Source: a virus
IMG/VR virus record: IMGVR_UViG_3300037504_000618
Location: 1 to 64,000 of that record
DNA: 64,000 bases
Direction: 5' to 3' (one strand)
The translations under genes were made by a program, and so were the position numbers. Positions 9,135 through 53,199 of this stretch are shown one piece after another. The notes below the pieces were generated by a model, which was not told the DNA's origin, searched no databases, and was given only the letters and a program-made list of their open reading frames with translations. Positions within the stretch are counted from its first letter, which is position 1. Each line of letters starts with the position of its first letter.

Positions 9135-9233
9135 AAAACGCCCGTTAATGGTGATTAACGGGCGTTTTTGTTGTGATTACGCGCGTTTTCGGCGGGTTGG
9201 GACGGGATTAGGGGCATGAAAAACGTCTGTTAA
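9135..9233. repeat. Composite site A: 14-6-14 core plus third arm
   Basis: AAAACGCCCGTTAA-TGGTGA-TTAACGGGCGTTTT (9135-9168), 51-bp gap, AAAACGTCTGTTAA (9220-9233). Confidence 0.9.
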
Positions 9234-9257
9234 TATGTATGAGCACGATATAGAAAT

Positions 9258-9356
9258 TTGTACTCAAGTACAATCTTTCCCGGAAAGCAAAATTCCCTCT
9301 TGACAGTCATAGAATTCTATGTATAATATAGATAGTTGGTTACATAGAATTCTATA
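9258..9356 (+). promoter_or_regulatory. Sigma70-type promoter with paired palindromic operators
   Basis: TTGACA 9300-9305, 16-bp spacer, TATAAT 9322-9327. CATAGAATTCTAT(G/A) at 9308 and 9343. TTGTAC-N4-GTACAA at 9258. Confidence 0.85.
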
Positions 9357-9370
9357 CCAGAAAGGGAAAA

Positions 9371-9970
9371 ATGATGAGGACAGCGAAGGAAAATTACGAG
9401 ATCAGGAATAATATAGGTCAAGCAGGTGAAATGGAAGAGGAAGAAAAGTGGGAGATGGCGGAGAGCTTGTTCGCCAATCCCGAAGCTGTCCCTGAAATCA
9501 TCGGGCGTGAGGAACGTGAGGAAGAGGAAACTGAGGAATTCACCCACGTGACCAGCGAAGAGGCTGCCGAGGCCATCTTGGACTCGGGCTTCAGCCTGGA
9601 CACCACCGACAGCCAAGGCGGAAGCCAGCTTGGAGTCGGGATCTACTTAAGCCAGGCGCCCGACTACTGGGCCGGGCTACTGAACCTGCACAGCTACTTA
9701 AGAGTCACGGTGCGGATGGATCGCATCGTGACAGACGTAAACGAAGTCGAGGGATTTGGCGCTTGGTTGGAAGCCGAGGGCTGGATGAAGGATGGAGGTC
9801 CCACGGAAAAGGCAAATGAATTCATAGCCAAGTTCCAGTTGCCTGAAGAGGCAGTGGGTAGGCTTCAGGTAGAGTGGCTGGCAGAGATTGGATACGATGG
9901 ATTGTGGGATCGCGAGTTTAATAATCTCGTGATCTGGAATCTGGATGCGATCAAAAGTGTGCGTAGATAG
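9371..9970 (+). CDS. Putative ADP-ribosyltransferase (PARP-like ART fold)
   Basis: FTHVT..AAEAILDSGF, LGVGIYLS and GYDGL..NNLVIWN match the H-Y-x ART motif order. Confidence 0.6.
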   Translation: MMRTAKENYEIRNNIGQAGEMEEEEKWEMAESLFANPEAVPEIIGREEREEEETEEFTHVTSEEAAEAILDSGFSLDTTDSQGGSQLGVGIYLSQAPDYWAGLLNLHSYLRVTVRMDRIVTDVNEVEGFGAWLEAEGWMKDGGPTEKANEFIAKFQLPEEAVGRLQVEWLAEIGYDGLWDREFNNLVIWNLDAIKSVRR

Positions 9971-9988
9971 TAGAAAGGAGTTAGAGAG

Positions 9989-10441
9989 ATGGATCAGAGA
10001 GCAGAGTGGTTAGCGTATCAAGTCGGTAAAATTGGGGTAGGGGATTTAGTTTATCCTGAGAATCAGGCCAAGGCTAAAGCTAAGATGGAAGCCAAAGCGG
10101 TCAGTGATCGCGAGCGTGATATTTTCTTGTTGGGGTATCACGCAGCGTTGCTTGAGTGGGCAGAGCTCCCCCTCGCACGGGGGGACGATGATATTCTCAC
10201 GCGCGAGCGGGTGGAGAGTATTATCCAGGAGATTATGGAGCGTAATGATCTCTTGTCACTGAGCCCAGGCGTCAAGAAGATCGCCGGGCCATTTGATACC
10301 CGTGCTCAAGCTGATGCTTGGTATTGGAGCAATGAGGAGAATTATGAGCCATATCTTCGTATAGTGCATGGCTTCGATGGTAAGTATTATGTCGCCGATC
10401 CTCAAGAGGCTGATGCTAAGCGTGAGCATTTGTTTGTTTAG
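9989..10441 (+). CDS. Hypothetical protein
   Basis: AGAAAGGAG RBS, 150 aa. Confidence 0.7.
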   Translation: MDQRAEWLAYQVGKIGVGDLVYPENQAKAKAKMEAKAVSDRERDIFLLGYHAALLEWAELPLARGDDDILTRERVESIIQEIMERNDLLSLSPGVKKIAGPFDTRAQADAWYWSNEENYEPYLRIVHGFDGKYYVADPQEADAKREHLFV

Positions 10442-11269: not shown

Positions 11270-11545
11270 TATCCTTCTTTAAAGATATATATTTCTTTAG
11301 CTATAATTTCTTTCTTTTCTTTTTCTTACCCCCCGCTATAGGTTAACCCGTCACCCTAATTAAGTTAACTTTTCACCCTAATTATCGTGAAGACTTCGTA
11401 ATCTTTCACACCTAACGGCGTGCAATTTCGCAACTTTTCACTGCGTGGGGGAGACATAAAAGAAGGGCTAGCGGTTAAGCTAGCCCTTGTGTGTGTGGGT
11501 GAATAGGTTAACTTTTCACCCTAATTAAGGTGAAATTTCACCCTA
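11270..11545. other. Putative replication origin (AT-rich tract plus iterons)
   Basis: T-rich tract at about 11275-11330. GTTAAC-N3-TCACCCTAATTA at 11342, 11364 and 11507, partial copy at 11537. Lies immediately 3' of the initiator gene. Confidence 0.7.
11463..11488 (-). terminator. Intrinsic terminator for the leftward operon
   Basis: AAGGGCTAGC-ggttaa-GCTAGCCCTT hairpin with a short T run on the minus strand. Confidence 0.6.
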
Positions 11546-14247: not shown

Positions 14248-14327
14248 TTCTATCCTCCCCTAATCTATAGTGTGCTTTGCGTGTTTGGTACCCCGTCTCA
14301 CTCACACTGCATACACACACACGGGTA

Positions 14328-14828
14328 TCACACACGCAAACGTGTAACATCTATCTTATCCTCAACGGCTGCGCGCAGAAGCGCATACCCTGGACCGGTC
14401 CAGCGGGTCCCTACCCGTGGGTCATCCCCAGCCCATTCGAGGAATTTGTGACGCATCAAGGCGTCGCGAAATCCCTCGAATTCGCTGCGACTTAATACGG
14501 GCAACAGCTCACGCAGTGAGAAGCCGCGCCCTTCTTTTTCCAGGTAGTAGGCACGCTTGAGCGCATCGTGGAGTTTGTGCGGGGGGGCCTGGACGGTGCG
14601 CCCATCGGACGTATACAGATAGACGGTCCGGCGAATTGGCTTGACCGTATTCTCGTTAATCTCCACAGCGAGAGGTGGGTATGCCTTATCGTTACGCGCT
14701 TTGCGCACTTCTGCTTCCAACTCATCCATGCGCTGCTTATCGACGATGGACATGAAGACGCCCCCGCCGAAGAATCCGATTACTGCACTTAGCATACATA
14801 TTCCACTCCAAATAAAGAAGTTGTCCAT
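14328..14828 (-). CDS. Membrane-anchored hypothetical protein
   Basis: N-terminal TM helix. C-terminus may be winged-helix-like. Confidence 0.6.
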   Translation of the reverse strand: MDNFFIWSGICMLSAVIGFFGGGVFMSIVDKQRMDELEAEVRKARNDKAYPPLAVEINENTVKPIRRTVYLYTSDGRTVQAPPHKLHDALKRAYYLEKEGRGFSLRELLPVLSRSEFEGFRDALMRHKFLEWAGDDPRVGTRWTGPGYALLRAAVEDKIDVTRLRV

Positions 14829-14915: not shown

Positions 14916-15347
14916 TTACCTCCGTTGTGCCGGTTCGCCGAGCATGGCTGTGTATAGCCATAGCTCTAACAACTGAGACGAGGCCGGCGAGATCAGACCG
15001 TCGAATGCCTCTAAGACCTCGGATAAACATTTATCGGTCCTTTGATGTTGGTGCTTTCTTTCGCGTGCCGGACTGTTTAGCAACTCCAATAGTTGATAGT
15101 AGAATGCACGTAGCTTATTCCAAGCCTCAGTGTGCTCTATCTCAACCAAGGGAATCGGTAAGAATGGGTCAGGGTTTTCATGAGGGAGCACGCGCACGAC
15201 GGCCAGCTCCTCATAAACCCCGACCATCTGGATGTTGTCTACCGGCCCACATACCGCGCCGACACGGGCCGCGATATCTAAGCTGAGGACGGTTGAAGCT
15301 GTCTTGACCGCTCGCGGTTCAGTTTTTGTTATGGTTTGTATGTTCAT
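14916..15347 (-). CDS. Hypothetical protein
   Basis: AAGGAG RBS, 143 aa. Confidence 0.6.
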   Translation of the reverse strand: MNIQTITKTEPRAVKTASTVLSLDIAARVGAVCGPVDNIQMVGVYEELAVVRVLPHENPDPFLPIPLVEIEHTEAWNKLRAFYYQLLELLNSPARERKHQHQRTDKCLSEVLEAFDGLISPASSQLLELWLYTAMLGEPAQRR

Positions 15348-15359
15348 AGTTTCTCCTTA

Positions 15360-15459
15360 TTAACGGACGTTTTTTAAGTTCGTTATTTATGTCACTAAGT
15401 CGCTACTTGCTACATTTTACGGTTAGAAATGACTGTTAAATCTTCTTAGCGGTCATTTT
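15360..15459. repeat. Composite site E (reverse arrangement)
   Basis: TTAACGGACGTTTT (15360-15373), 52-bp gap, GAAATGACTGTTAA-ATCTTC-TTAGCGGTCATTTT (15426-15459). Confidence 0.85.
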
Positions 15460-16383: not shown

Positions 16384-18414
16384 TCATCGTTCCTTCTCCC
16401 AAGGTCTGGCCCAGTCGGCGGGCCAGTTGCGCACTTGCCAGCTCCGCACCTGCGTAAGCGGAAAGGGGAGCGAGCACCAGATCTCTTCCCTTCCGCTCAT
16501 AGGATTGAGGAGCGGGGCGGGCTTATTATCGTTTAATTCGCGTCGCCAGCGGCCTTCATTGACGATGAGATCCATGAGCTGTATCAGGCCGGCATCACGG
16601 CCCAGCTCGTTGAAGTGCTCCGCGAGATAATCCGTCAGGGCGCTAAAGTTGCGTTTCCAGGCGGGTGACTCGTTGCCAATGGTGCGTTGATAAGGCAGCC
16701 AGCCCAGCGGAGCCCAGACCGCGTGACGGGCAAACTTGCTCTTCCACAAGATCGGCATCCAGTTATAGAACTCGGTGCGTGTGAAGAGATCGACGTGGAT
16801 GTCGTATTGACTACTGGGGAGTTGGGGTAGCGCAGATTCGGCGAAGGAGAACAGCTCGCAGCGTGTGAGCAAGGTTCCGCCCTGACTGACCAGCAGGCCC
16901 ATTGCGGGCGCCCGGGGTTCATCGCTTTGAATGACAGGCTCACGGGCGAAGACGCAAGGCGTGCCCCATTCCTCGATATAGTGGCGGCACTTCTCGCACG
17001 TGTGCGCCTGGAAGTGCTGGCGCGTCTCGGCGTCCATTTGATAGAGCTGGAACTTGTAGAACGCGGCCAACTTCTCGCGTATTCGATGTAATCTCGTTGT
17101 TTTGTGGGACTCATTATCACTATTATGATATGGATGGGCCTTGCAGGCTGCGTCATAAAGCTTGAGATAGTCCGGGATATTATCGACATAGTAGAATCCA
17201 TTTCTACGAATTCTTTTTATGTCGATACCAAGCCGGAGAGCCTGTGACCGCATCTGATAATCCGCGTGCGGCATTACAGGATCCTGCGATCCAATATAAT
17301 TCCGGCAGATGGGAATGGCGATCCGTTCTGGGAGTGATATGTGAGGACGCGGGCAGTGGGAGCTTACCAATGGATGGCGCTCGCGTTCGACGTTGCTGAA
17401 AATGCAATCGTGACACGTAAGCCCTTCGGCTTCCACGTAGTGATTCCACGATGGAACACGTCCCTTGGCTTTCAGTGCTTTAACGACCTCTGTTACACTA
17501 TCATAACGAATGATATCCTTAACATGAGCATATAAGCAGGAGATCTGGAGTAATGGCTCCACGTCCGGCTCGCGTGAGCTGGCGTGCCAGAGTTTTAGCG
17601 CCCACTGGATCCAGCGCAAGCTATTGCGCTCGCGTGGCGTGTACTCCTGCGCGGGGTTGATGGCCCAGCGGTTCACATCCGTGAAGCGGGCCACGGCTTT
17701 GGTCAACGCCTCGATGTCGCGTGTCGTGGCCCCGTCCACGTCCACCTTGCGGATCACGGCCTCCGTCATGCCCTTCTGGAGTTTCTCGGGCACGGAGGCC
17801 AGTGCACGCGCGTGGGCCAGACCCAATACGCGCGTATTCAGCGCCTCGTGGGCCTGCTCATTGAGCTGAAGCAAGCTCAGACGCTGCGCGATGTAACCCT
17901 GGGATTTATTGACGTACTGCGCCAGCTCGCGTTGGGACCAGCCATAAGCGTCAATGAGGCCCTGATAGCCGTGGGCCTCTTCCAGGGGGTTGAGGTTGGC
18001 ACGGTCCAAGTTCTCGACGATGGCGAGGACGTGCAGATCCTCCATGGCCATCCCGCGCTTGATGATCGCGGGGACCATGACCTGCGCATCTTTGAGCGTG
18101 GCGATCTCCTGGGCGTTGAGGCCCTGCAGGCCCACGTGGGCCAGGCGACGCACGTATTGCTCCGGGCCATGATTGTCGTAGCGCTCGCCCAGGGCCAGGC
18201 CCAGCAGGGCGCGGGTGCGACGCTCCCCGGCGACCAGCTCGTAGACGGTATAGCCGTCCGCGTCCGGCTCGTCAAAGACGGTCACGGGGTTGATGAGTCC
18301 GTGGTCGTCAATGGACTGCGCCAGCTCCCAGAGCGCGTCCTCGTCGAACGCGCGTCGGGGTTGCCAACGCGAGGGCTTGATCAGCCAAGCGGGGACTTGT
18401 TCGATCTCTGTCAT
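16384..18414 (-). CDS. ParB/RepB/Spo0J-family protein with long Cys-rich C-terminus
   Basis: QPRRAFDEDALWELAQSIDDHGLINPVTV, LVAGERRTRA, ENLDRANLNPLEEA and HTH. CxxC pairs in the C-terminal half. Confidence 0.88.
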   Translation of the reverse strand: MTEIEQVPAWLIKPSRWQPRRAFDEDALWELAQSIDDHGLINPVTVFDEPDADGYTVYELVAGERRTRALLGLALGERYDNHGPEQYVRRLAHVGLQGLNAQEIATLKDAQVMVPAIIKRGMAMEDLHVLAIVENLDRANLNPLEEAHGYQGLIDAYGWSQRELAQYVNKSQGYIAQRLSLLQLNEQAHEALNTRVLGLAHARALASVPEKLQKGMTEAVIRKVDVDGATTRDIEALTKAVARFTDVNRWAINPAQEYTPRERNSLRWIQWALKLWHASSREPDVEPLLQISCLYAHVKDIIRYDSVTEVVKALKAKGRVPSWNHYVEAEGLTCHDCIFSNVERERHPLVSSHCPRPHISLPERIAIPICRNYIGSQDPVMPHADYQMRSQALRLGIDIKRIRRNGFYYVDNIPDYLKLYDAACKAHPYHNSDNESHKTTRLHRIREKLAAFYKFQLYQMDAETRQHFQAHTCEKCRHYIEEWGTPCVFAREPVIQSDEPRAPAMGLLVSQGGTLLTRCELFSFAESALPQLPSSQYDIHVDLFTRTEFYNWMPILWKSKFARHAVWAPLGWLPYQRTIGNESPAWKRNFSALTDYLAEHFNELGRDAGLIQLMDLIVNEGRWRRELNDNKPAPLLNPMSGREEIWCSLPFPLTQVRSWQVRNWPADWARPWEKER

Positions 18415-18711
18415 AATGCTCCTAATTCCTTTCTGATGATGAGTGAAGCCCCCTCTTGCCCGGCGGATGGTGGGCCGCCGGGCTTTGTAAGGAGGGTCCC
18501 CGGTATCACGTAAGCCGGGGAGCTAGAGGGCGTATGATAAGGCCATACGCCCTCTAGCTCCCATTCCTGCGTGAGCTGCGGGATCGTCACTTGGCGACGA
18601 CTCCGTAGCGCGTCTGCGGCGTGATGCGACCGGTTTGCACGTCGTACCATGCGCGCAGGTGGCCCAGGAGATCGCCGGTGATTAAGCTGTCCAATATGAC
18701 TCTGAGTAATT

Positions 18712-18951
18712 CTAACATTGTGCCCCTCCCAGATATTTATTGATAGCGCTTTGCCTAAGATCGTAGAAATCTAAGGCCCATTCGCGCCTGATTGGATTCA
18801 TCCGACGCTGAATTTCAGCATAAACGCAAGGGTCAATAAAACCACCTTCGTATAAGTTCTGTAGTAATTCGGCGTCACTCATTTTTCTGACGCGCGCTTC
18901 CTCGCCCGGAGGCGCTGTTATCGGACCGATTGGTGTTTGCAGGGTCAACAT
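18712..18951 (-). CDS. Hypothetical protein
   Basis: GGAGG RBS, translationally coupled ORF. Confidence 0.6.
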   Translation of the reverse strand: MLTLQTPIGPITAPPGEEARVRKMSDAELLQNLYEGGFIDPCVYAEIQRRMNPIRREWALDFYDLRQSAINKYLGGAQC

Positions 18952-19226: not shown

Positions 19227-19453
19227 CGTGTTTGCCTCCTTAGCCCCTTGAGGAAGCGGGCTTTTAAGCTTTTGCGGGTCATTTGATTGTAGGCGCTGAG
19301 GACGTTCAGCGCTCTAATGAGCTGCGCTTGGAGCGCGATGACGTAGGCCAAGATGCCCAGGGCTTCCTCGCGGGTGAGGCTGTCGCGCTCACCGTCGAGG
19401 AGCGCGTCAAAGAGGGCGTCGATTTCGTTTTTGGCTAGCATCAGTCGCTCCAA
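19223..19453 (-). CDS. Hypothetical protein
   Basis: Overlaps the recombinase stop codon. Start uncertain (19453 or 19441). Confidence 0.5.
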   Translation of the reverse strand: MERLMLAKNEIDALFDALLDGERDSLTREEALGILAYVIALQAQLIRALNVLSAYNQMTRKSLKARFLKGLRRQTR

Positions 19454-20472
19454 TTGGTCTTTTCGACGGCGGCTTGTAAGTCCGCCTCGCTGGGCATCGT
19501 ATACAAGCGTGTGGTGTCCAGATTCTCATGGCCCATCAGTGCGGCCACGCGCTCCAGGCCCACGCCCGCGTCCACGAGATTCTTGCCGAAGCAATGGCGC
19601 AGGGTGTGCGGATGGATGTCCTCCATCCCGCCGCGATCCGCCAGAACGTAGATGCGCCCGGCGCAGGCGCGCTTGCTTAAGCGCCCGCCCTTCTGCGAGA
19701 TGAAGAGGGCCGTCTCGTCGTCCGCTGCGACGTGACCGCGCACTTCAAGCCACGCGCTGAGGGCTTTGCGCGTGTCCTTGTTCAGGGGGACGGTGCGCGT
19801 TTTGTTGCCCTTGCCCTGCCGCACGATTAGCTTGCCGCTGCGGGGGTTGATCTCGATGTCTCCCACGTCCAAGGCTGCGGCTTCGCTGATGCGCAAGCCC
19901 GCGCCGAAAAGGACGTAGAAGATGGCCTTATCCCGCTTGGGCCAGAGGTTGCTAGGCGCGGCCTCATCCCCGGCAGCACGCAGCTCGCCAAGCTGGACGT
20001 TCTCATCAATAGCGCGCAGGAGCTTGTATTGCTCCGGGCGCTCAAGCCACTTGAGGGGCTTGTCCTGGATCTTGAGGCCGCCGATGCCGTCCGTGGGGTC
20101 GTGCTGGGCATGGCCCGTGGTCTGTGCCCAGGCGGCGAAGGCGGAGAACCCGCTCAAGTAGTTGTTGACGCTGGCAGCGGCAAGGCGTTTCGCCAGATCG
20201 TCGCGCCACATCCGCACATCGAAGGACGTGACGTTGACCGGCTGAAAGCCTTTCCCATTATTCAGTTCAAACCATTCCACGAAATTGCTTGCTCCTATGA
20301 CGTAAGCCCGAACCGTCGCTGAGGAGATATCTCTTCCTCGCAAATGCGCCTCGAACTCCGCCATGTAGTCGACCGTCTCGGCGACCGGCAGGTCGAGGAT
20401 CGAGGGCGCTTTTTCCTCGATTGACAATTCGCACGTTTGTTCTATAATCTCTGTTGAGTGTCTCTTTCCCAT
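19441..20472 (-). CDS. Tyrosine recombinase 1 (Xer/resolvase-like)
   Basis: GLRISE, GKGNKTR, HTLRH and MGHENLDTTRLY are intact. AAAGGAG RBS before ATG 20472. No arm-binding domain. Confidence 0.95.
   Translation of the reverse strand: MGKRHSTEIIEQTCELSIEEKAPSILDLPVAETVDYMAEFEAHLRGRDISSATVRAYVIGASNFVEWFELNNGKGFQPVNVTSFDVRMWRDDLAKRLAAASVNNYLSGFSAFAAWAQTTGHAQHDPTDGIGGLKIQDKPLKWLERPEQYKLLRAIDENVQLGELRAAGDEAAPSNLWPKRDKAIFYVLFGAGLRISEAAALDVGDIEINPRSGKLIVRQGKGNKTRTVPLNKDTRKALSAWLEVRGHVAADDETALFISQKGGRLSKRACAGRIYVLADRGGMEDIHPHTLRHCFGKNLVDAGVGLERVAALMGHENLDTTRLYTMPSEADLQAAVEKTNWSD
20421..20448 (+). promoter_or_regulatory. Consensus promoter antisense to the leftward operon, with an SOS-box-like spacer
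   Basis: TTGACA-attcgcacgtttgttc-TATAAT. CGCAC-GTTT-GTTCT lies between the two hexamers. Confidence 0.55.
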
Positions 20473-20520
20473 CGGATACTCCTTTTTCCGTGATGGCCCT
20501 GCCCCAAGCAGGGCCATTTT

Positions 20521-20844: not shown

Positions 20845-21843
20845 TTAAGCGGTGCTTCCCTTCCGATAATGCACCTTATCGGAATGGCCGTTATTTTTCT
20901 CCAAGGCGGCCCGCACGGGACCGCCCAAATGCTTCGCGGGATTGTTGCGTTCTAGATCGCGCACGCGGGCGTAGATCTCGGTGGTCTGGATGCTGGCGTG
21001 GCCTAGCATCTCCTTGATGTAGCGCATCTCTTCATGGTCCATAGCGTGGGTGGCGAAGGAGTGGCGCAGGCTGTGGCATGAGACCCCCGGCCGCTTGAGC
21101 CCCGCGAGCTCTAGGTAGTGGTCAACCGTGAGGCGCACTGCCCGCAGGCTGAGACGCTGCGGTAGGCCCTCACGATTGTGATGCATATTCACGAAGACGG
21201 CCTTTGTTTCCGGCCCCATGAGCATACGATACTTGAGCCACAGCTTCATGATGCTGTGGAGCTCCTCATTCATGGGGACCGCGCGCATCTTGCGACCTTT
21301 GCCCACGATGGTAAGCCGCTTGTTCTCCAGGTCCACGTCGCCAACGTTCATACCTGCGACCTCCATCGTGCGCAGCCCGCCCAGGTACATGCAGGCCAGC
21401 ATGGCGAGGTCACGGACGCCTTTGGGTGTGTGGGGATTGGGCAGCTCGAAGAGGCGGGTGATGTCGCGCTCCGACAAGTACTTGATCTTAGCGGCGCGAT
21501 CTTTCTTGTCCTCTGGGGCTTCGAGATCGTGGGCGGGGTTGCGGTCGAGGAGATCGCGGGCGGTGAGCATGTCGTAGTAGGTGCGCAGGCTGGCGATCTT
21601 GCGGGCGACGGTACTGGCGGCGTATTCCTCCACCAGCCAGGCGCGATAGTCGGCCAGGTCCTCGGCATCCACGGCGAGGAAGGGGACGCCCTCCTCGTCG
21701 AGCCAGGTGAGATGCTGCGCGACGTCCGTGCTGTAGTTGCGCAGGGTGATCGGCGCGGGGTTGCCGCGCGCGACGTGGCCCTTGCACCACTGGCGGAATT
21801 CCCCCAGGAGTTTTCCGGAGGTGATGAGTTCAGCCGCTTGCAT
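20845..21843 (-). CDS. Tyrosine recombinase 2 (XerC/D-like)
   Basis: GLRTME, GKGRKMR, HSLRH and LGHASIQTTEIY are intact. SAM-like N-terminal domain. Confidence 0.95.
   Translation of the reverse strand: MQAAELITSGKLLGEFRQWCKGHVARGNPAPITLRNYSTDVAQHLTWLDEEGVPFLAVDAEDLADYRAWLVEEYAASTVARKIASLRTYYDMLTARDLLDRNPAHDLEAPEDKKDRAAKIKYLSERDITRLFELPNPHTPKGVRDLAMLACMYLGGLRTMEVAGMNVGDVDLENKRLTIVGKGRKMRAVPMNEELHSIMKLWLKYRMLMGPETKAVFVNMHHNREGLPQRLSLRAVRLTVDHYLELAGLKRPGVSCHSLRHSFATHAMDHEEMRYIKEMLGHASIQTTEIYARVRDLERNNPAKHLGGPVRAALEKNNGHSDKVHYRKGSTA
20861..20884. repeat. Perfect 9-6-9 dif-like site inside the 3' end of recombinase 2
   Basis: TTCCGATAA-TGCACC-TTATCGGAA. Confidence 0.7.
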
Positions 21844-26764: not shown

Positions 26765-26864
26765 AAAACAGCCGTTAATTAGGGTTAACGGTCGTTTTCC
26801 CTCTGATTACGCGCGTTTTCACCGCGTTGGGGCGGGGGTAACGCGCTCAAAAAACGTCCGTTAA
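26765..26864. repeat. Composite site B
   Basis: AAAACAGCCGTTAA-TTAGGG-TTAACGGTCGTTTT (26765-26798), 52-bp gap, AAAACGTCCGTTAA (26851-26864). Confidence 0.9.
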
Positions 26865-26985
26865 TTCGGTGTGATTGGTGCTTTACTTTTGCAGGGATTG
26901 GTGGTATGATGGGGGTATCAAAATAAAAGCGCCCCGGCGCTGCATACACAGCCCGGGGCTTTGGCTCACCAGAAAGGAGTTTTCG

Positions 26986-37413: not shown

Positions 37414-37425
37414 CCCGGATGTAAA

Positions 37426-37525
37426 TTAACAGTCGTTTTTTACCCGCGTTATCCCGCCTCAGACCCCCATCTGGGGCGGGGTTGCGTAAGAGAAACAGCC
37501 GTTAAGATAAGTTAACGGCTGTTTT
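37426..37525. repeat. Composite site C (reverse arrangement)
   Basis: TTAACAGTCGTTTT (37426-37439), 52-bp gap, GAAACAGCCGTTAA-GATAAG-TTAACGGCTGTTTT (37492-37525). Confidence 0.9.
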
Positions 37526-42381: not shown

Positions 42382-42382
42382 G

Positions 42383-43262: not shown

Positions 43263-43330
43263 TACGCGCGACATCAATCAGGGGGACCGAGGACAATCCC
43301 GGTCCCCCAACGAAACCAAGGAGGTTTTCA

Positions 43331-43555
43331 ATGTCGGAGCAGAAGGTCGTTTTGAATGGTGAGAGCAGTAGTCCTATTGTGGTCAGTCGCAGTGTGTATC
43401 GCGGGGTGGAGCGTTTGGACATCCGCCGCTATTACTATGCAACGGGGGATGGGGAATTGCGCCCCACCAAAAAGGGCGTGAGCCTGCCCATTGAGAGTGG
43501 TTTAGCGGCCCAGGCCGTGCAAGTCTTGCAGGCCATGTTGAACGGAAGTGACTGA
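43331..43555 (+). CDS. PC4/p15-like ssDNA-binding protein, paralog 2
   Basis: YRGVERLDIRRYY..GELRPTKKGVSL PC4 signature. Confidence 0.85.
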   Translation: MSEQKVVLNGESSSPIVVSRSVYRGVERLDIRRYYYATGDGELRPTKKGVSLPIESGLAAQAVQVLQAMLNGSD

Positions 43556-43787
43556 GATGTCTACAGCATACGCGCTTAATCAGAAAGCACAAGTAACACG
43601 TGAGGATTTGCAGGATATTTGGAGACGACTACGCGGTAAGCCTTTGGCACAGGAGCACATAGGCGGAATGCTACGCTTCGCAAATGGACTGTTGCGGGAT
43701 TGCAAGCGACGTCATCCACACAGCGTTCAATGTATTGCGGAAGTCGAATTTGGTGGCGTGGACTTTCGTTTTTGCCGTCCAATGTAG
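43548..43787 (+). CDS. Hypothetical protein
   Basis: Overlaps the upstream stop codon. Confidence 0.5.
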   Translation: MTEMSTAYALNQKAQVTREDLQDIWRRLRGKPLAQEHIGGMLRFANGLLRDCKRRHPHSVQCIAEVEFGGVDFRFCRPM

Positions 43788-43869
43788 ATGCGCTTTAGTA
43801 CGCGCGTAATCAAGGGGGACCTAGTGTCATCGCGGTCCCCCTCACAAACACCAGAAAGGAGATGTTGAA

Positions 43870-44457
43870 ATGTTTGAGGAAGTTAAGCAGTTACGGGAGA
43901 AGGCAGCCCAGATCGTGCGGTATCTATCCCCGTGGGAGTTGGCCCCGGTGAATCCCCGGGTTGACAACCTGGTGCAGCTCGTCAATACTCAGGTGGAGGG
44001 GCCGGCGATCATGCTGCGGTTGCGCAAAGGACGCATCAGCTTCTCCGGGCAGTATCCGCACCCGTATTACCCCTCCGACCCGGCCGAGCGGGCCTACATC
44101 ACGGTGAGCGCGAGCCGGTCCCCGCAGTCCATCGCCGGGGACGTGCAGCGGCGGCTTCTGCCGAGGTATCAGAAAAGTTACGCGGCGGCCGTCGCGCGGC
44201 AGGAGGCGGACGAGGCGTATGAGCGGCGCCGGTGCGACGCCTTGGAGATGCTGGCGGCGATCAGCCAGATGCCGATCTCCCATCACAACGACCGTGAGCC
44301 GCAGATCTATCACTATGCTCATCCTCCGGGGACCCTGGCCCGGATCAAGATCCGCACCTATTCCCTGGACGATACTATGCAGGTGGACTTAGACCTCGAC
44401 GGTATCCCCTTCGACGTGGCCAAGCAACTGTGTCGGGTTTTAAGTACGATTTCCTAA
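43870..44457 (+). CDS. Hypothetical protein
   Basis: AGAAAGGAG RBS, 195 aa. Confidence 0.75.
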   Translation: MFEEVKQLREKAAQIVRYLSPWELAPVNPRVDNLVQLVNTQVEGPAIMLRLRKGRISFSGQYPHPYYPSDPAERAYITVSASRSPQSIAGDVQRRLLPRYQKSYAAAVARQEADEAYERRRCDALEMLAAISQMPISHHNDREPQIYHYAHPPGTLARIKIRTYSLDDTMQVDLDLDGIPFDVAKQLCRVLSTIS

Positions 44458-44467
44458 TCTCCAAATA

Positions 44468-44497
44468 AAAAGGGGGGCGAAATTTCGCCCCCCTTTT
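44468..44497. terminator. Perfect 30-bp palindrome, bidirectional terminator
   Basis: AAAAGGGGGGCGAAA|TTTCGCCCCCCTTTT. Confidence 0.8.
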
Positions 44498-44506
44498 CTT
44501 ATAATT

Positions 44507-44570: not shown

Positions 44571-45278
44571 TTGAAGATGGAGCAGACAACTTTTTTACAG
44601 GTAGAGAGCGGGTATCGGGTGGCGGACTTTCCGGCGTCCGAGCGTCCGGTCAATCGGCTGCGGGAGGTGGGGCCGCGTGCGGTCTCCAACGCGGAGCTGC
44701 TGGCGTGCATCTTGCAATCGAGGGAGGCCCTGGATCAGGCGAACGCGCTGTTGGTGGAGATGGGGGGACTGGCGGGCCTGGTGCACGCGGACGCGGTGAT
44801 GTTCGAGGCCATTCGGGGGATCGGACCGGCGCAGGCCGCGCGGCTGTACGCGGCAGTGGAACTGGGGCGGCGTCTCAAGGCTGAGGCCCCGTTGGAGGTA
44901 CAGATCCGCGCCCCGGCGGACGCGGCCAACTTCCTATTCCCGTTGATCAGCATGGAGGAACAGGAGAACTTCGTGGTACTGTACCTCAACACGCGGAACC
45001 AGGTGATGACCCACGAGGTCCTCTATCGAGGGACCCTAAATACTTCCGTCGTGCGGGCTGCGGAAGTCTTTAGGGGCGCAATTCGGCGCAACAGCGCGAC
45101 CATCGTCGTGGCGCACAATCACCCCTCGGGTAACCCGGACCCCTCGGCGGAGGACATCGGGCTGACGCGCCGCTTGGTGGAGGCGGGACGCTTGGTGGAG
45201 GTGGAGGTGCTGGATCACCTGGTCATCGGGCACGGGCGGTATGTGAGTTTAAAGGAGCGGCAGTTGGGGTTTGATTAA
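44571..45278 (+). CDS. radC: RadC-family JAB domain protein
   Basis: ERP.NRL..LSNAELLA, HhH motif GIGPAQA, AHNHPSGNPDPSAED and LDHLVIG. Confidence 0.93.
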   Translation: MKMEQTTFLQVESGYRVADFPASERPVNRLREVGPRAVSNAELLACILQSREALDQANALLVEMGGLAGLVHADAVMFEAIRGIGPAQAARLYAAVELGRRLKAEAPLEVQIRAPADAANFLFPLISMEEQENFVVLYLNTRNQVMTHEVLYRGTLNTSVVRAAEVFRGAIRRNSATIVVAHNHPSGNPDPSAEDIGLTRRLVEAGRLVEVEVLDHLVIGHGRYVSLKERQLGFD

Positions 45279-45373
45279 CGGACGTTTTTCAGCGCATTAA
45301 ACGGGGCAAAAACCGCAGTTTTAGCCCCGTTTCCCCTTAATAACTTCCGTTAATTTGACTTATCAGACGTTTT
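45275..45373. repeat. Composite site D (reverse arrangement)
   Basis: TTAACGGACGTTTT (45275-45288, contains the radC stop), 51-bp gap, ATAACTTCCGTTAA-TTTGAC-TTATCAGACGTTTT (45340-45373). Confidence 0.85.
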
Positions 45374-45471
45374 CTTCTATAATGAAGGTAATAGGTTAGC
45401 CTGTCAGTAGATATAAATTCCGGGGCGATCCGCTTAGGCGGGTCGCCCCTTTTCGTTTTCTGAGGTACTTA

Positions 45472-50630: not shown

Positions 50631-50937
50631 TAATCAGGAAGAAATAAGGCGGTTGCGAGTAGCTTCGCTACACTTACGCGGTTTGACCCCTTTAGAAATT
50701 AGCTCTGCCCTCGGACCGGATATGCCGGCTGACGTCGAGACGGTCTGTGAGGATATTGCTTATCTGGAACGCATTTGGACAACAGAGGTCAAGCCGACCC
50801 AGCGTCACTTGGCACGGATGCTCGCGGAAACCCGTGAGGCCCGACGTGTAGCTTGGGCTAAGGCGGATATGAGTTTGGTATTGGATTTAATCAAGCAAGA
50901 GGCGAAGCTATTGAGGATAGACACGCTTCTATTATAA
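50623..50937 (+). CDS. HTH protein
   Basis: RRLRVASLHLRGLTPLEISSAL..VETVCEDI. AGGAGG RBS before GTG. Confidence 0.6.
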   Translation: MTSNQEEIRRLRVASLHLRGLTPLEISSALGPDMPADVETVCEDIAYLERIWTTEVKPTQRHLARMLAETREARRVAWAKADMSLVLDLIKQEAKLLRIDTLLL

Positions 50938-50971
50938 GAAACGTCTGCTAATGGAAATTAACGGCTGTTTT
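50938..50971. repeat. Site G: 14-6-14 core, third arm degenerate
   Basis: GAAACGTCTGCTAA-TGGAAA-TTAACGGCTGTTTT. Only AAAACG remains 53 bp downstream (51025). Confidence 0.75.
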
Positions 50972-51062
50972 ATTTCGCGTAATCATGCGATATCGAGGGG
51001 GAAAAGCGGAACCTCTCCCGGAATAAAACGCACAATTGTTACATATGGGGAGTTGAGGGGTT

Positions 51063-51656
51063 GTGGAGGATGATCGGAGCACGGCATTTCCGGCCAACGA
51101 AAAGACGCCGGGGCAGCGCAAGAGTCGCACTGCCTATCAGAAGTTTAGCGACCAGTTGGAGTCTTTTCCGTGGATGGAAGAGTATTTGGAGCTACGTCAA
51201 ATGGAACTGCGAGGGCGCAAGCTGGACTGGCGCAAGGCGGTCTACGTCGCGTGGGCCAGCATGCCTACGCCCAGACGCCAGCCGGAGACGCAGGATGAGC
51301 TGGCGACGCAGGTCTTGGGGCTTAGCTCCTATCGCACGATCAGCCGGTGGAAGAAGAAGTACCCGGAGCTGGAGGAGCTGGTGGCCGAGCGGCAGGCCGC
51401 GCCGTTGCTCAAGTATCGGGCGGACGTGTTCGAGGCGCTGGGCCAGGTGGCCCGTATGCCTGACCCGAAGGCCCATCGGGACCGCAAGCTTTTCTTGGAG
51501 ATGTCGGGGGACTATAGCCCCCGCAAGGCCGTCGAGGTGACCGGTGAAGATGGTGAAGCTGTTCAACAGGTGGTGGCTTTTGACCTTAGCGATATCCCTT
51601 CTGACATCCTACGGCATATCGCCAACGGCAACGCAGATCACGAGCCTGAAGACTGA
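51063..51656 (+). CDS. terS: Terminase small subunit (HTH)
   Basis: TQDELATQVLGLSSYRTISRWKK and VEVTGEDG tail. Upstream of TerL. Confidence 0.75.
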   Translation: MEDDRSTAFPANEKTPGQRKSRTAYQKFSDQLESFPWMEEYLELRQMELRGRKLDWRKAVYVAWASMPTPRRQPETQDELATQVLGLSSYRTISRWKKKYPELEELVAERQAAPLLKYRADVFEALGQVARMPDPKAHRDRKLFLEMSGDYSPRKAVEVTGEDGEAVQQVVAFDLSDIPSDILRHIANGNADHEPED

Positions 51657-53103
51657 AGCGCGCCGCGAGTTGGCCCGCCGGCACCTCGTGGACTTCACCT
51701 GTTGGACGTATCCGCAGTACGTGGACGACCCGGCACACTGGCTGATCGCGGAGCATCTGGAGAAGGTGCTCACGGGCCAGATCAAGCGGCTGATGATCTT
51801 CGCCCCTCCGCAGCATGGGAAGTCGGAGCTGGTCTCTATTCGTTTCCCGGCCTTTTGGCTAGGGCACCGGCCCGATGACCCCGTGATCTTGGCTTCTTAT
51901 GGAGCCAGCCTAGCGGAGCGGCATAGCAGTGAGGCACGGGCGGCGGTGGAGAGTCAGGAATATCAGGATATCTTCACCGAGACGCGCACGCGGCAGGACA
52001 GCCGATCCAAGCAACTCTGGCGTATCCAGGATCATCGCGGGGGGCTATTAGCCGCCGGTGTAGGTGGCCCTATCACGGGCCATGGGGCTGTGCTGGGCAT
52101 CATTGACGACCCGTTTGAGAACTGGCGGCAGGCGCAGTCCCTCACGGTGCGCAATCACGTCTGGGATTGGTGGCGGGGTACATTTAGGACGCGGATCTGG
52201 GAGGACGGCGCGATTATCCTGGTGATGACGCGCTGGCATGAGGATGATCTCGCGGGGCGGCTCTTATCGGAGCAGGGCGACCGCTGGACCGTGCTCCGGC
52301 TCCCGGCGATTGCTGAGACGCAGGAGGATCGCGATAAGAGCAATGCGTTGCTAGGACTTCCGACAGGGGAGCCCGACCCGCTAGGCCGTGCGCCGGGCGA
52401 GGCGCTGTGTCCGCAGCGCTTCAGCACGGAGGCGCTCACGGTCATTCGCTACGATGTGGGCAGCATGGTCTGGTATGCGGAATACGTGGGCGTGCCCCGG
52501 TCGCCGGAGGGGAACAAGTTCAAGCGGTCGTGGTTTGAGGGACGGATGGTTGAGGCGGTGCCCTCCGAAGGGCGGCGGGTGCGCTATTGGGACAAGGGCG
52601 GGACGCAGGGCGGCGGCGATTATACCGCCGGGGTGTTGATGGTGCTGCACGAGGGGCGGTTCTTCGTCGCGGACGTTGTCCATGGGCAATGGTCTGACTA
52701 CGAACGCGATAAGACGATCAAGGCCACGGCTGAATTGGATGGCGTGGAGACCGTGACGTGGGTCGAGCAGGAACCGGGCAGTGGTGGGAAGGATTCAACA
52801 AACGCCACGATCCGCAAGCTGGCGGGCTTCAACGTGCACGCGCATCGGCCCAGTGGGGATAAGGAAGTCCGAGCCAGCCCCTTCGCGGCGCAGTGCGAAG
52901 CGGGGAACGTGTTCCTCAAGCGCGCGCACTGGAACGCGCAGTATCTCGCGGAGCTGACAGCCTTCCCCAACGGCGCGCACGATGACCAGGTGGACGCCAG
53001 CAGCGGCGCGTTTAACCGGCTGGCCCCAGCGGGGGGACAGTCTTATTTGGATTGGATGAAACAGCGCGTTGCGAAGGAACAGGAAGCGCAACAAGGGAAT
53101 TAA
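51544..53103 (+). CDS. terL: Terminase large subunit
   Basis: PPQHGKSE, IIDDP, MTRWHEDDLAG and HDDQVDA. The true start may lie slightly downstream. Confidence 0.95.
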   Translation: MKMVKLFNRWWLLTLAISLLTSYGISPTATQITSLKTEARRELARRHLVDFTCWTYPQYVDDPAHWLIAEHLEKVLTGQIKRLMIFAPPQHGKSELVSIRFPAFWLGHRPDDPVILASYGASLAERHSSEARAAVESQEYQDIFTETRTRQDSRSKQLWRIQDHRGGLLAAGVGGPITGHGAVLGIIDDPFENWRQAQSLTVRNHVWDWWRGTFRTRIWEDGAIILVMTRWHEDDLAGRLLSEQGDRWTVLRLPAIAETQEDRDKSNALLGLPTGEPDPLGRAPGEALCPQRFSTEALTVIRYDVGSMVWYAEYVGVPRSPEGNKFKRSWFEGRMVEAVPSEGRRVRYWDKGGTQGGGDYTAGVLMVLHEGRFFVADVVHGQWSDYERDKTIKATAELDGVETVTWVEQEPGSGGKDSTNATIRKLAGFNVHAHRPSGDKEVRASPFAAQCEAGNVFLKRAHWNAQYLAELTAFPNGAHDDQVDASSGAFNRLAPAGGQSYLDWMKQRVAKEQEAQQGN

Positions 53104-53199
53104 CGGATGTTTTTATGAGAGTTTACGGAGGGTTTTTGGGCGTGAAAACGCGCGTAATCAGGGGAGAAATAACCGATAATGCCTATTAACGGCTATTTT
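53100..53199. repeat. Composite site F (reverse arrangement)
   Basis: TTAACGGATGTTTT (53100-53113, contains the terL stop), 52-bp gap, GAAATAACCGATAA-TGCCTA-TTAACGGCTATTTT (53166-53199). Confidence 0.88.

What the first reader, a model, noticed from the sequence alone, without database searches (positions are those of the whole stretch)
9135..53199. Genome-wide family of dif/lox-like 14-6-14 sites, each with a unique spacer and a third arm 51-52 bp away
Seen: seven cores of consensus RAAAC-N2-CYGTTAA-N6-TTAACGG-N2-GTTTT lie at gene boundaries: 9135, 15426, 26765, 37492, 45340, 50938 and 53166. Six have an extra single arm after a gap of 51, 52, 52, 52, 51 and 52 bp (9220, 15360, 26851, 37426, 45275, 53100), about five helical turns. 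The spacers are TGGTGA, ATCTTC, TTAGGG, GATAAG, TTTGAC, TGGAAA and TGCCTA; none match in either orientation. Known: TAA-N6-TTA is the architecture of Xer/dif-type tyrosine recombinase sites, strand exchange normally needs identical spacers, and Tn4430 TnpI uses extra copies of its binding motif as accessory sites. Inference: these are addressed crossover sites for recombinase 1 and/or 2, which have no other obvious substrate. They should not recombine with each other, but each could recombine with its twin in a dimer or a related phage. Alternative: dispersed operators of a KorB-like ParB regulator.
Basis: partly seen in the sequence, partly recalled or inferred. Interest (0 to 1): 0.9.

Follow-up and report, generated by a model that had tools for sequence, protein, structure and literature searches.

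The report
Dispersed three-armed protein-binding sites in phage
A 72-kb phage that probably also lives as a plasmid carries eight copies of a 100-base, three-armed DNA signal between its gene blocks; the signal looks like a recombinase target but may equally be a set of switches for a master regulator.

Summary
An eighth complete module lies just beyond the window, at 64082-64182 of the same 72,037-bp virus record. The same architecture recurs in related phage contigs whose terminase is about 70% or more identical. The centre is always 6 bp, and the third arm starts 85-87 bp from the far arm in 25 of 25 modules. It is missing from more distant relatives, and the core pattern was found in only 1 of 301 sampled Anaerolineae genomes.

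These are DNA-level protein-binding sites, not RNA hairpins. The two core arms do not covary, half of the cores fold weakly, and separate GC-rich terminators sit inside or beside several modules.

The layout closely matches the Tn4430 TnpI resolution site. A catalytically intact Xer-like recombinase and a 676-aa ParB-like protein both co-occur with the modules, so the binding protein is unresolved.

The "addressed spacer" idea is not supported. Centres at orthologous loci are 61% identical, and four-fold sites of the terminase gene are 36-61% identical.

My best reading is boundary or operator modules for a master DNA-binding protein (0.45). True heterospecific recombination sites come second (0.28). 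Earlier notes of this scan describe similar spacer-unique palindromes in unrelated phages. Novelty: new variant of a known kind.

The parts
9135..9168 (.). Core 1: perfect 14-6-14 palindrome, spacer TGGTGA. It starts 14 nt after the stop of the 558-aa gene.
9219..9234 (+). Third arm of module 1 (16-mer), preceded by TTA at -11..-9 where most third arms read TAA. A consensus sigma-70 promoter follows at 9300-9327.
15426..15459 (.). Core 2, spacer ATCTTC, lying between minus-strand genes.
15359..15374 (-). Third arm of module 2. It sits 11 nt ahead of the start codon of minus-strand gene 14916-15347; those 11 nt hold its ribosome-binding site.
26765..26798 (.). Core 3, spacer TTAGGG. A separate GC-rich terminator (26731-26754) lies immediately upstream.
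26850..26865 (+). Third arm of module 3.
37492..37525 (.). Core 4, spacer GATAAG. This module is in reverse orientation, with the third arm upstream.
37425..37440 (-). Third arm of module 4.
45340..45373 (.). Core 5, spacer TTTGAC. The -35 hexamer of promoter 45355-45383 lies in its spacer and right arm.
45274..45289 (-). Third arm of module 5. It overlaps the stop codon of the RadC-like gene. The 50-bp inter-arm stretch holds a GC-rich hairpin that has a different sequence in each of three orthologues.
50938..50971 (.). Core 6, spacer TGGAAA. It has no third arm and starts directly after the stop of the 131-aa gene.
53166..53199 (.). Core 7, spacer TGCCTA, lying 13 nt ahead of the portal gene start.
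53099..53114 (-). Third arm of module 7. It overlaps the stop codon of the large terminase gene.
20861..20884 (.). Simple 9-6-9 palindrome with the same inner arm (TTCCGATAA-N6-TTATCGGAA). It lies in the last codons of recombinase 2, upstream of the 103-aa ORF and recombinase 1.
19441..20517 (-). Recombinase 1: Xer-like, 358 aa, catalytic residues intact. Orthologues at 44-45% identity occur in G001 and G005. Candidate binder of the arms.
16384..18414 (-). ParB-like protein of 676 aa (ParB_N plus HTH_ParB domains). Its helix-turn-helix and GERR motif are invariant in three orthologues. Rival candidate binder.
9176..9185 (+). Copy of the second motif ATTACGCGCG (half of the palindrome ATTACGCGCGTAAT), 7 nt after core 1. 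Similar copies lie at 26806 and 53149.

Best explanation
Each module is a roughly 101-bp DNA-level binding platform for a phage-encoded sequence-specific protein.

Proposed mechanism:
- Two protomers sit on the inverted core arms, around a 6-bp centre that the protein does not read.
- A third protomer sits on the best-conserved distal arm, which is preceded by a conserved TAA one helical turn upstream.
- The fixed 65-66 bp between the near core arm and the distal arm lets the three protomers form one complex.
- That complex bends or wraps the 51-bp intervening DNA. This stretch carries locus-specific signals: a terminator hairpin, short tandem repeats, or the ATTACGCGCGTAAT palindrome.

Proposed role: one module stands at the head of nearly every operon (replication/partition, lysogeny, DNA-modification, terminase, head, tail). 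I therefore read the modules as dispersed operator or boundary elements. Through them a master regulator would silence or insulate the lytic operons while the genome is kept as a plasmid prophage. Known parallels are the P1 C1 operators, SPbeta SPBRE/MrpR and RK2 KorB.

Which protein binds is unresolved. My conditional odds are:
- Xer-like recombinase 1: 45%
- ParB-like 676-aa protein: 30%
- another protein: 25%

Shown by the calls: the sites, their geometry, their conservation as sequence rather than as pairing, and their restriction to this clade.
Inferred: the binding itself, the three-protomer complex, and the regulatory outcome.
For: Geometry is fixed across phages:
- The spacer read out as 6 bp in all 26 cores; the arm search behind these placements allowed +/-2 bp.

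Selection acts on sequence, not on pairing:
- In 12 orthologous pairs the identities are: third arm 87%, inner arms 76% and 72%, spacer 61%, inter-arm DNA 60%.
- Four-fold sites of the terminase gene are 36-61% identical.
- Left/right arm complementarity in 26 cores is no better than in shuffled pairings (p 0.18; 0.70 when shuffled within genomes).
- 13 of 26 cores have a predicted MFE weaker than -7 kcal/mol on both strands.

The third arm is a larger unit: TAA at -11..-9 is present as T 24/25, A 19/25, A 21/25.

Position:
- 25 of 25 modules are intergenic and fit tightly between a stop codon and the next start codon.
- Both orientations occur relative to transcription: in G000, 4 forward and 3 reverse. 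This argues for a DNA-level, non-polar function.
- Core 5 overlaps a promoter matching 11 of 12 consensus positions.
- The orthologues in G005 and L215 have TTGACA-17-TATAAT or TTGACA-17-TACAAT right at, or just after, the core.

Distribution:
- Real modules occur only in phages with terminase identity of about 70% or more. Among the 78 new loci scanned, only L129 and L130 had them.
- Five more distant records show the arm pattern at background level: 6 hits against 11 control hits. These records also lack close orthologues of recombinase 1 and of ParB-676.
- The core pattern was found in 1 of 301 sampled Anaerolineae genomes, so it is neither a host dif site nor a host regulon motif.

Published precedents (passages read):
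- 22 C1 operators are dispersed on the P1 genome (PMC8546580).
- MrpR, a repressor with the tyrosine-recombinase fold, binds SPBRE at ten promoter regions of SPbeta (PMC10516654).
- KorB silences promoters from OB sites at a distance (PMC11790492).
Against: - No call shows that any protein binds these sites.
- A 34-bp palindrome whose half-sites are centred 20 bp apart is unusual for helix-turn-helix repressors and typical of tyrosine-recombinase core sites.
- Core-to-promoter geometry is not conserved at the one locus with three orthologues. The -35 lies inside the core in G000, at its edge in G005 and 19 nt beyond it in L215.
- Only 1 of 8 G000 modules overlaps a consensus promoter.
- Three modules lie inside what looks like the late operon.
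- Modules come and go at given junctions. G003 lacks the module that G002 and G005 have. G001 and G003 have a module ahead of the UDP-glucose dehydrogenase gene where G000, G002 and G005 have none. That turnover is odd for essential operators.
- The recombinases are catalytically intact, unlike MrpR.
- My gene calls are a simple longest-ORF set.
Confidence: 0.45

Rival explanations
1. The modules are true heterospecific recombination sites. The phage's own Xer-like recombinase would cut at the borders of the 6-bp centre, and the third arm would be an accessory site, like DR1/DR2 of the Tn4430 IRS. Because every centre differs, sites would recombine only with their own copy. That could happen in a plasmid multimer or in a related phage. 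The result would be multi-point multimer resolution and module exchange without internal deletions.
For: - The layout matches the published Tn4430 IRS. That site has two 14-bp inverted motifs cut 6 bp apart and 16-bp accessory motifs sharing the same 9 bp (PMC2847244).
- Acinetobacter plasmids carry many pdif sites with differing spacers at module borders, and crossover needs matching spacers (PMC13141974).
- The recombinases are catalytically intact.
- Recombinase 1 is conserved in G000, G001 and G005, and a core-type site lies upstream of its operon in all three.
- The conserved terminase gene (71-74% aa identity) is joined to unrelated or very distant head-gene sets. A module sits at that junction in G000 and in G002-G005 and G007.
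- Contigs from other samples start to match at 50950 (inside core 6) and at 53099 (first base of a third arm).
- The closest pair, G002/G005, keeps spacers at 6/6, 6/6 and 4/6.
Against: - Spacers at orthologous loci are near neutral overall: 44/72 identical, against 36-61% at four-fold sites. One orthologue shares only 1 of 6 positions.
- No joint between two cores appears among the 15 joints listed for the four runs (28 further joints were not shown). These were Logan contigs only, which drop rare forms.
- The large strand inversion that separates G000 from G001 and G005 is not bounded by cores.
- A multimer needs only one resolution site.
- At the terminase/portal junction the module is absent in G001 and G006, although the swap pattern is the same.
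- Gene-boundary mosaicism is expected in phages without any special site.
Confidence: 0.28
2. The modules are loading or centromere sites for the 676-aa ParB-like CTP-switch protein. On this reading they would be a composite site like P1 parS (an inverted pair plus a distal motif across a bend), dispersed like the N15 centromeres. They would serve plasmid segregation, with or without KorB-like silencing.
For: - The ParB_N and HTH_ParB domains are present.
- The GERR motif and the helix-turn-helix are invariant in the G000, G001 and G005 orthologues, while the rest of the protein is 32-38% identical.
- The orthologue is absent from 4 of 5 module-less relatives, and the fifth has only a weak 26% hit.
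- In G001 a third arm overlaps the parB start; in G005 a module follows parB.
- The P1 parS and N15 layouts are recalled from memory and were not checked in any call.
Against: - Known ParB and KorB sites are contiguous 13-16 bp palindromes (OB sequence read in PMC11790492). They are not 14-6-14 sites with a gap.
- No canonical parS is present: 3 matches at 3 mismatches against 1.64 expected.
- The genome has an actin-like ParM partition gene. I found no ParA among the 40 proteins scanned against Pfam.
- A module lies upstream of parB in only 1 of 3 phages, against 3 of 3 for the recombinase 1 operon.
Confidence: 0.15
3. The modules are ordinary transcription punctuation: conserved bidirectional intrinsic terminators, or terminator-plus-promoter cassettes like the PeSLs of T4-type phages. 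They would be spread and shuffled by homologous recombination, with no dedicated binding protein.
For: - The cores have an A-tract, a stem and a T-tract, and the scan lists core 1 and core 3 as terminator-like.
- Cores 1 and 4 fold at about -18 to -21 kcal/mol.
- PeSLs are composite promoter/terminator motifs at sites of gene exchange (PMC2839356 passages; PMC4122927 abstract).
Against: - There is no left/right covariation (p 0.18 and 0.70), and 13 of 26 cores fold weaker than -7 kcal/mol on both strands.
- The 6-nt centre never varies in length.
- The single third arm cannot pair with itself and is the best-conserved part.
- Separate GC-rich terminators lie beside or inside modules.
- No conserved sigma-70 hexamers occur in the inter-arm DNA. 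The TAA at -11..-9 lacks the T at hexamer position 6 (3 of 22).
- Rfam gives no match.
Confidence: 0.05

Closest known systems
Internal resolution site (IRS) of Tn4430, acted on by tyrosine recombinase TnpI (PMC2847244; passages read)
   Same: Both have two 14-bp inverted motifs around a centre cut 6 bp apart, plus extra 16-bp copies of the same motif beside the core as accessory sites. Both are about 100-116 bp in all. In the IRS the accessory motifs set orientation even for symmetrical cores.
   Different: The IRS is a single site next to tnpI with two tandem accessory motifs. Here there are 8-9 dispersed copies per genome, one accessory arm at a fixed 51-52 bp, and a different centre in each copy. 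No recombination has been shown here.
pdif sites and dif modules of Acinetobacter Rep_3 plasmids (PMC13141974; passages read)
   Same: Both are many dif-like sites with 6-bp spacers of differing sequence on one replicon, lying at the borders of gene modules. Both show TAA-N6-TTA at the centre.
   Different: pdif sites are asymmetric 11-6-11 XerC/XerD sites that mimic the host dif site and are served by host enzymes. Here the arms are near-symmetric 14-mers. The core pattern was found in only 1 of 301 sampled genomes of the likely host class. There is a third arm, and the phage encodes its own recombinases.
Dispersed prophage operators: the 22 C1 operators of phage-plasmid P1 (PMC8546580) and SPBRE bound by the recombinase-fold repressor MrpR in SPbeta (PMC10516654)
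   Same: Both are a conserved motif repeated in many intergenic regions of a temperate phage, ahead of operons. In SPbeta the binding protein has the tyrosine-recombinase fold.
   Different: The P1 operators are single asymmetric 17-mers and SPBRE is a 15-bp motif. Neither has a 14-6-14 core with a third arm at a fixed distance. MrpR has lost its catalytic residues, whereas the recombinases here keep them.
KorB OB operators of plasmid RK2 (PMC11790492)
   Same: In both, a ParB-family CTP-binding protein is encoded on the replicon and its sites are spread over that replicon.
   Different: OB is a contiguous 13-bp palindrome. Here the palindrome is 34 bp with a free 6-bp centre and an extra arm.
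PeSL promoter/terminator cassettes of T4-type phages (PMC2839356; PMC4122927)
   Same: Both are short composite motifs repeated between genes, at places where relatives differ in gene content.
   Different: PeSLs are a sigma-70 promoter plus a terminating stem-loop and act through homologous recombination. Here the stem is not kept by covariation and no conserved promoter is present.

Membership tests
Tyrosine-recombinase core site (lox/dif/IRS type) | Two inverted arms of about 9-14 bp | tested here: met
   26 cores examined. The inner 9 bp are the best kept part, at 72-76% identity between orthologues.
Tyrosine-recombinase core site (lox/dif/IRS type) | Central region of fixed length (6-8 bp) and free sequence | tested here: met
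   The centre is 6 bp in 26 of 26 cores. All eight G000 centres differ.
Tyrosine-recombinase core site (lox/dif/IRS type) | A cognate, catalytically intact tyrosine recombinase encoded by the element | tested here: inconclusive
   Three intact recombinases are present. One is conserved across module-bearing phages. Nothing shows which of them, if any, is the cognate enzyme.
Tyrosine-recombinase core site (lox/dif/IRS type) | Binding and strand exchange at the site | not testable with these tools
   Only Logan contigs were available, and no core-to-core joint was listed.
Tyrosine-recombinase core site (lox/dif/IRS type) | A partner site with the same centre | tested here: not met
   Within G000 the best pair shares 4 of 6 positions over 28 pairs. 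Only the site's own copy in a multimer or in a close relative could be a partner (6/6 in 2 of 12 orthologous pairs).
Tn4430 IRS-type resolution site | Accessory copies of the recombinase-binding motif beside the core | tested here: met
   A third arm is present in 7 of 8 G000 modules, and in all 25 catalogued modules by definition of the catalogue.
Tn4430 IRS-type resolution site | A single site per element, adjacent to the recombinase gene | tested here: not met
   There are 8 dispersed copies in G000. Only a simple 9-6-9 site lies near recombinase 1.
pdif / dif modules | Asymmetric XerC and XerD arms that mimic the host dif site | tested here: not met
   The arms are near-symmetric. The core pattern was found in 1 of 301 sampled Anaerolineae genomes, and in a different form there. 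The true host is unknown.
pdif / dif modules | Several sites per replicon at module borders | tested here: met
   There are 8 sites in 72 kb, all intergenic.
Intrinsic terminator / PeSL cassette | A stable stem kept by compensatory change, followed by a U-tract | tested here: not met
   There is no covariation (p 0.18 and 0.70), and 13 of 26 cores are weaker than -7 kcal/mol on both strands.
Intrinsic terminator / PeSL cassette | A conserved sigma-70 promoter within the cassette | tested here: not met
   Position-by-position counts over 22 modules show no conserved hexamers. Only core 5 overlaps a promoter.
Dispersed prophage operators (P1 C1, SPBRE/MrpR) | A conserved motif in many intergenic regions ahead of operons | tested here: met
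Dispersed prophage operators (P1 C1, SPBRE/MrpR) | Overlap with the promoters that are controlled | tested here: inconclusive
   1 of 8 G000 modules overlaps a consensus promoter. The geometry shifts between orthologues.
Dispersed prophage operators (P1 C1, SPBRE/MrpR) | An identified repressor that binds the motif | not testable with these tools
   The candidates can only be listed.
ParB/parS or KorB/OB | A ParB-family protein with a helix-turn-helix and a CTP motif | tested here: met
ParB/parS or KorB/OB | A contiguous 13-16 bp palindromic site | tested here: not met
   The site is 14-6-14 with a free centre. No canonical parS is present.

The most novel reading that the evidence does not exclude
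The phage carries a natural set of heterospecific, IRS-like recombination sites served by its own Xer-like recombinase. Each operon boundary would have its own crossover address. Plasmid multimers could then be resolved at many points without internal deletions, and related phages could swap whole functional modules by site-specific exchange. That would be a natural form of recombinase-mediated cassette exchange, with the third arm imposing alignment.
Probability: 0.25. Interest if true: 0.85.

Novelty: new variant of a known kind. Interest (0 to 1): 0.62.

Why it matters
If the modules are operators, they would define the whole lysogeny or plasmid-state regulon of an uncultured group of phages of the Anaerolineae-associated phage lineage. 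They would do so with an unusual three-protomer site, possibly read by a recombinase or a ParB-type clamp.

If they are crossover sites, they would show that phages can build addressed joints for exchanging functional modules. That bears on the old question of how mosaic phage genomes are assembled. It would also provide a ready-made set of mutually incompatible recombination sites.

Either way the binding protein can be tested directly. The sites are sharply defined and there are only a few candidate proteins.

Tried and rejected
Searches that gave little or nothing:
- A 14-base palindrome pattern in viral contigs returned 115 loci. These were mostly unrelated terminators and too unspecific to use.
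- A composite core-plus-arm pattern found 1 viral locus and 0 genome loci.
- The terminase protein scan of metagenome contigs gave 1 locus. The same scan of genome contigs gave 1 Anaerolineae MAG contig, which has no arms.
- A scan with the recombinase 1 alignment found only the two orthologues already known.
- No RNA holder was listed for the stretch, so expression could not be examined.
- Read laying used Logan contigs only. Parts without cover, and the absence of core-to-core joints, say little.
- The variant joint 37484>37937 has no arm at its right end.
- Rfam gave no match.
- No canonical parS was found.

Ideas rejected:
- The TAA ahead of the third arm as a sigma-70 -10 element. Hexamer position 6 is T in only 3 of 22 modules.
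- An attenuator in which the third arm pairs alternately with a core arm. The third arm does not follow the variable positions of its core, and both orientations relative to transcription occur.
- A MITE-like mobile element. The inside of the module is not conserved while its length is, and there are no terminal inverted repeats.
- The DnaA_N replication protein as binder. It has its own iteron-like repeats at 11338-11545.
- The two HTH_17 proteins as binders. They have no orthologues in G001 or G005.
- The small ORFs ahead of recombinase 1 in G000 and G005 as a shared accessory gene. They are not homologous.

Limits:
- Supplementary files of papers were not consulted.
- The P1 parS and N15 centromere layouts, the loxP and SloxP arm sequences, the phiC31 repeats and the mycobacteriophage stoperators were only recalled. 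They are used as leads, not as tests.

Full report
WHAT IS THERE

The window is the first 64,000 bases of a 72,037-bp virus record.

An eighth module lies at 64082-64182, beyond the window. It has a core and a third arm.

Each core is two inverted 14-bp arms of the type AAAAC-nn-CYGTTAA around 6 free bases.
- Exact TTAA-N6-TTAA occurs in 3 of 7 cores. That is 3 matches against 0.21 expected.
- The arm pattern with up to 2 mismatches is found 32 times against 13.65 expected, and no shuffle of 100 reaches 32.
- A weight matrix from the arms finds 23 sites scoring 18 or more, and nothing else above 15.7.
- 100 shuffles gave a mean of 0.05 such sites. The matrix is built from the same sites, so this is circular. 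The independent evidence is what follows in relatives.

Seven of the eight cores have a third arm in direct repeat with the far core arm, 85-86 bp from its start. The third arm is a 16-mer close to AAAAACGTCCGTTAAT and is more uniform than the core arms.

THE GENOME

Pfam and PHROGs scans show these genes:
- large terminase
- portal fused to a Mu F-like domain
- SU10-type capsid protein
- an actin-like ParM homologue
- a 676-aa and a 349-aa ParB-like protein
- a replication protein with a DnaA N-terminal domain
- three tyrosine recombinases
- DNA-modification genes

This gene set fits a phage that is also kept as a plasmid. Terminase relatives in public data are named from Anaerolineae and Aggregatilinea MAGs.

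RELATIVES

Phage contigs with 71-76% identical terminase carry the same module. They are G001 (43 kb), G002, G003, G004, G005 (55 kb, with ends that overlap by 27 nt inside a core), G006, G007 and L215.

I built a catalogue of modules that needed a strong third arm plus arms near the expected places. It gave 25 true modules. The third arm starts 85 bp (4 modules), 86 bp (20) or 87 bp (1) from the far arm and 65-67 bp from the near arm (a slop of +/-2 was allowed).

The modules stop at a clear boundary:
- Of the 78 further terminase loci I scanned, only L129 and L130 (G005 and G006) had real modules.
- Five whole records with 59-63% identical terminase show the arm pattern at background level: 6 hits against 11 control hits.
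- An Anaerolineae MAG contig with 64% identical terminase has none.
- The core pattern with up to 2 mismatches occurs in 1 of 301 sampled Anaerolineae genomes, and in a different form there.

So the module belongs to one narrow phage lineage. It is not a host dif site or a widespread host motif among the genomes searched.

DNA SITE OR RNA HAIRPIN?

The cores look like bidirectional terminators, and the consensus scan lists two of them as such. Four results argue that pairing is not what selection keeps:
- Over 26 cores the left and right arms are no more complementary than shuffled pairings. The mean is 9.65 of 14 against 9.43 (p 0.18). Shuffling within genomes gives p 0.70.
- Within G000 alone there was a weak trend (p 0.076).
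- 13 of 26 cores fold weaker than -7 kcal/mol on both strands.
- The centre is 6 bases in every case.

The genomes also have ordinary GC-rich terminators:
- One lies directly before core 3.
- At the RadC junction a GC-rich hairpin of different sequence sits between the third arm and the core in each of three orthologues, while the inter-arm length stays 50-51 bp.

The part that cannot pair, the third arm, is the best conserved. Rfam has no match. I conclude the arms are read as double-stranded DNA by a protein.

ANATOMY IN MORE DETAIL

- The third arm is preceded by TAA at -11..-9 (T 24/25, A 19/25, A 21/25). The far core arm has no such feature, and its outer half is degenerate in the G002/G005 group.
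- Arm quality runs: third arm, then near core arm, then far core arm.
- The 51-bp inter-arm DNA is otherwise free. It holds terminator hairpins, tandem heptamers, or the palindrome ATTACGCGCGTAAT.
- That second motif is enriched genome-wide: 26 sites with up to 1 mismatch against 5.0 expected. Of its 8 exact copies, 4 lie in modules.
- All 25 modules are intergenic and fill the gap between a stop codon and the next start codon. Either the third arm or the core often lies within 2-30 nt of the start.
- Both orientations relative to transcription occur: in G000, 4 forward and 3 reverse. This argues against a polar RNA or promoter function.
- The TAA is not a sigma-70 -10 element. Position 6 of such a hexamer would be T in only 3 of 22 modules.

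Spacers. In 12 orthologous pairs (not all independent) the identities are as follows:

| Region | Identity |
|---|---|
| Third arm | 167/192 (87%) |
| Inner arms | 76% and 72% |
| Spacer | 44/72 (61%) |
| Inter-arm DNA, gapped alignment | 60% |

Four-fold degenerate sites of the terminase gene in the same kinds of pairs are 36-61% identical. The closest pair, G002/G005, keeps spacers at 6/6, 6/6 and 4/6. The L215 orthologue of core 5 shares only 1 of 6 positions with G000. Spacers therefore drift at about the neutral rate and are not fixed addresses.

Mosaic boundaries:
- The terminase gene (71-74% aa identity in all relatives) is joined to head-gene sets that are unrelated or at most 29-55% identical.
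- In G000, G002, G003, G004, G005 and G007 a module sits at that joint. In G000 it is in the opposite orientation. G001 and G006 have no module there.
- Contigs of other samples start to match the window at 50950, inside core 6, and at 53099, the first base of a third arm. I could not fetch those contigs.
- Modules are gained and lost. G003 lacks one that G002 and G005 have.
- The large strand inversion that separates G000 from G001 and G005 is not bounded by cores.

This evidence is compatible with exchange at the modules, but it does not require it.

WHO BINDS?

Proteins shared by the three large module-bearing genomes are few:

| Protein | Identity to G000 |
|---|---|
| Recombinase 1 | 44-45% |
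| ParB-676 | 32-38% |
| Replication protein (DnaA_N) | 41-49% |
| MgsA_C-like protein | 73-77% |
| UDP-glucose dehydrogenase | 52-54% |
| Large terminase | 71-72% |

A few proteins of unknown function are also shared.

- The replication protein has its own iteron-like repeats at 11338-11545.
- Recombinase 1 is Xer-like (best solved relatives XerA, XerC and XerD) and keeps all catalytic residues, as do the other two recombinases.
- A core-type site lies upstream of the recombinase 1 operon in all three genomes. In G000 it is a simple 9-6-9 palindrome at 20861-20884. In G001 and G005 it is a full module.
- ParB-676 keeps its GERR motif and helix-turn-helix unchanged in all three genomes, but a module lies upstream of it in only one of them.
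- Close orthologues of both proteins are missing from five module-less relatives. Co-occurrence therefore does not separate them.

COMPARISON WITH WHAT IS KNOWN

- The layout is nearest to the Tn4430 IRS. That site has two 14-bp inverted motifs cut 6 bp apart, plus 16-bp accessory motifs sharing the same 9 bp (PMC2847244).
- The dispersal recalls pdif sites of Acinetobacter plasmids (PMC13141974), the 22 C1 operators of P1 (PMC8546580), SPBRE/MrpR of SPbeta (PMC10516654) and KorB OB sites (PMC11790492).
- PeSL cassettes are the closest model that needs no binding protein, and they fail the covariation and promoter tests.
- Searches for 'Anaerolineae' with 'phage-plasmid' (0 papers) and for heterospecific sites at phage module boundaries (1 unrelated review) found nothing on this family.
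- Earlier notes of this scan describe spacer-unique dif-like palindromes in unrelated SPbeta-like and other phages. They are unchecked and are not evidence here. In contrast to what those notes claim for their phages, the centres in this family are not kept letter for letter.

VERDICT

- The elements are clade-specific, three-armed protein-binding modules at operon boundaries.
- I give 0.45 to a regulatory or boundary role for a master DNA-binding protein, with recombinase 1 or ParB-676 as the likeliest binder.
- I give 0.28 to true heterospecific recombination sites, 0.15 to a ParB centromere or loading role, and 0.05 to plain terminator cassettes.
- The remainder goes to anything else.
- The family is a new variant of known kinds, and it is worth a binding and recombination test.

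Noticed in passing
window 11338-11545: Two 43-nt direct repeats made of iteron-like units ending in TCACCCTA lie at the end of the DnaA_N replication gene. This is probably the plasmid origin.
   Followed up: no
window, genome-wide (e.g. 9050, 9176, 17825, 26806, 34206, 43801, 49172, 53149): The palindromic motif ATTACGCGCG(TAAT) is enriched: 26 sites with up to 1 mismatch against 5.0 expected. Half of the exact copies lie inside modules and others lie inside genes, one of them in parB. Its meaning is unknown.
   Followed up: partly
window 45355-45449: A near-consensus promoter that overlaps core 5 is followed within about 40 nt by a strong GC-rich terminator hairpin (45422-45449), ahead of the gene at 45472. 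The promoter and hairpin are also present in G005 and L215. This could be a short leader or a small RNA.
   Followed up: partly
window 41260 / 44503: A contig from another sample joins 41260 to 44503 and so skips the ParB-349 block. The ends fall at copies of the separate 37-bp promoter repeat that another first-stage finding noted. This looks like cassette loss by recombination between those repeats.
   Followed up: no
G005 (L207:1-47 and L209 end): The 55,168-bp relative has 27 identical bases at both ends, and the break falls inside a core. The record is probably a complete circle that the assembler opened at a module.
   Followed up: partly
G002 6235-6859, G003 8873-9517, G005 18686-19308: One gene of about 650 bp sits at three different places in three otherwise collinear relatives. 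It behaves like a small mobile gene.
   Followed up: no
G002 15300-15345, G004 3310-3335, G003 18680-18730, G005 8880-8920: The inter-arm DNA of the terminase/portal module holds 3-4 tandem heptamers. Their sequence differs between phages (GTAGACG, GAAACGT, GGTTGTR).
   Followed up: no
window 18506-18574 and 14276-14340: A 31-nt inverted repeat lies upstream of parB-676 and an 18-nt inverted repeat lies upstream of the ParM operon. They could be the operators or centromeres of those systems.
   Followed up: no
window 37485-37936: In the likely source sample a minority variant (depth about 15 against 59) replaces this stretch, including core 4 and the 82-aa ORF, with 7 other bases.
   Followed up: partly
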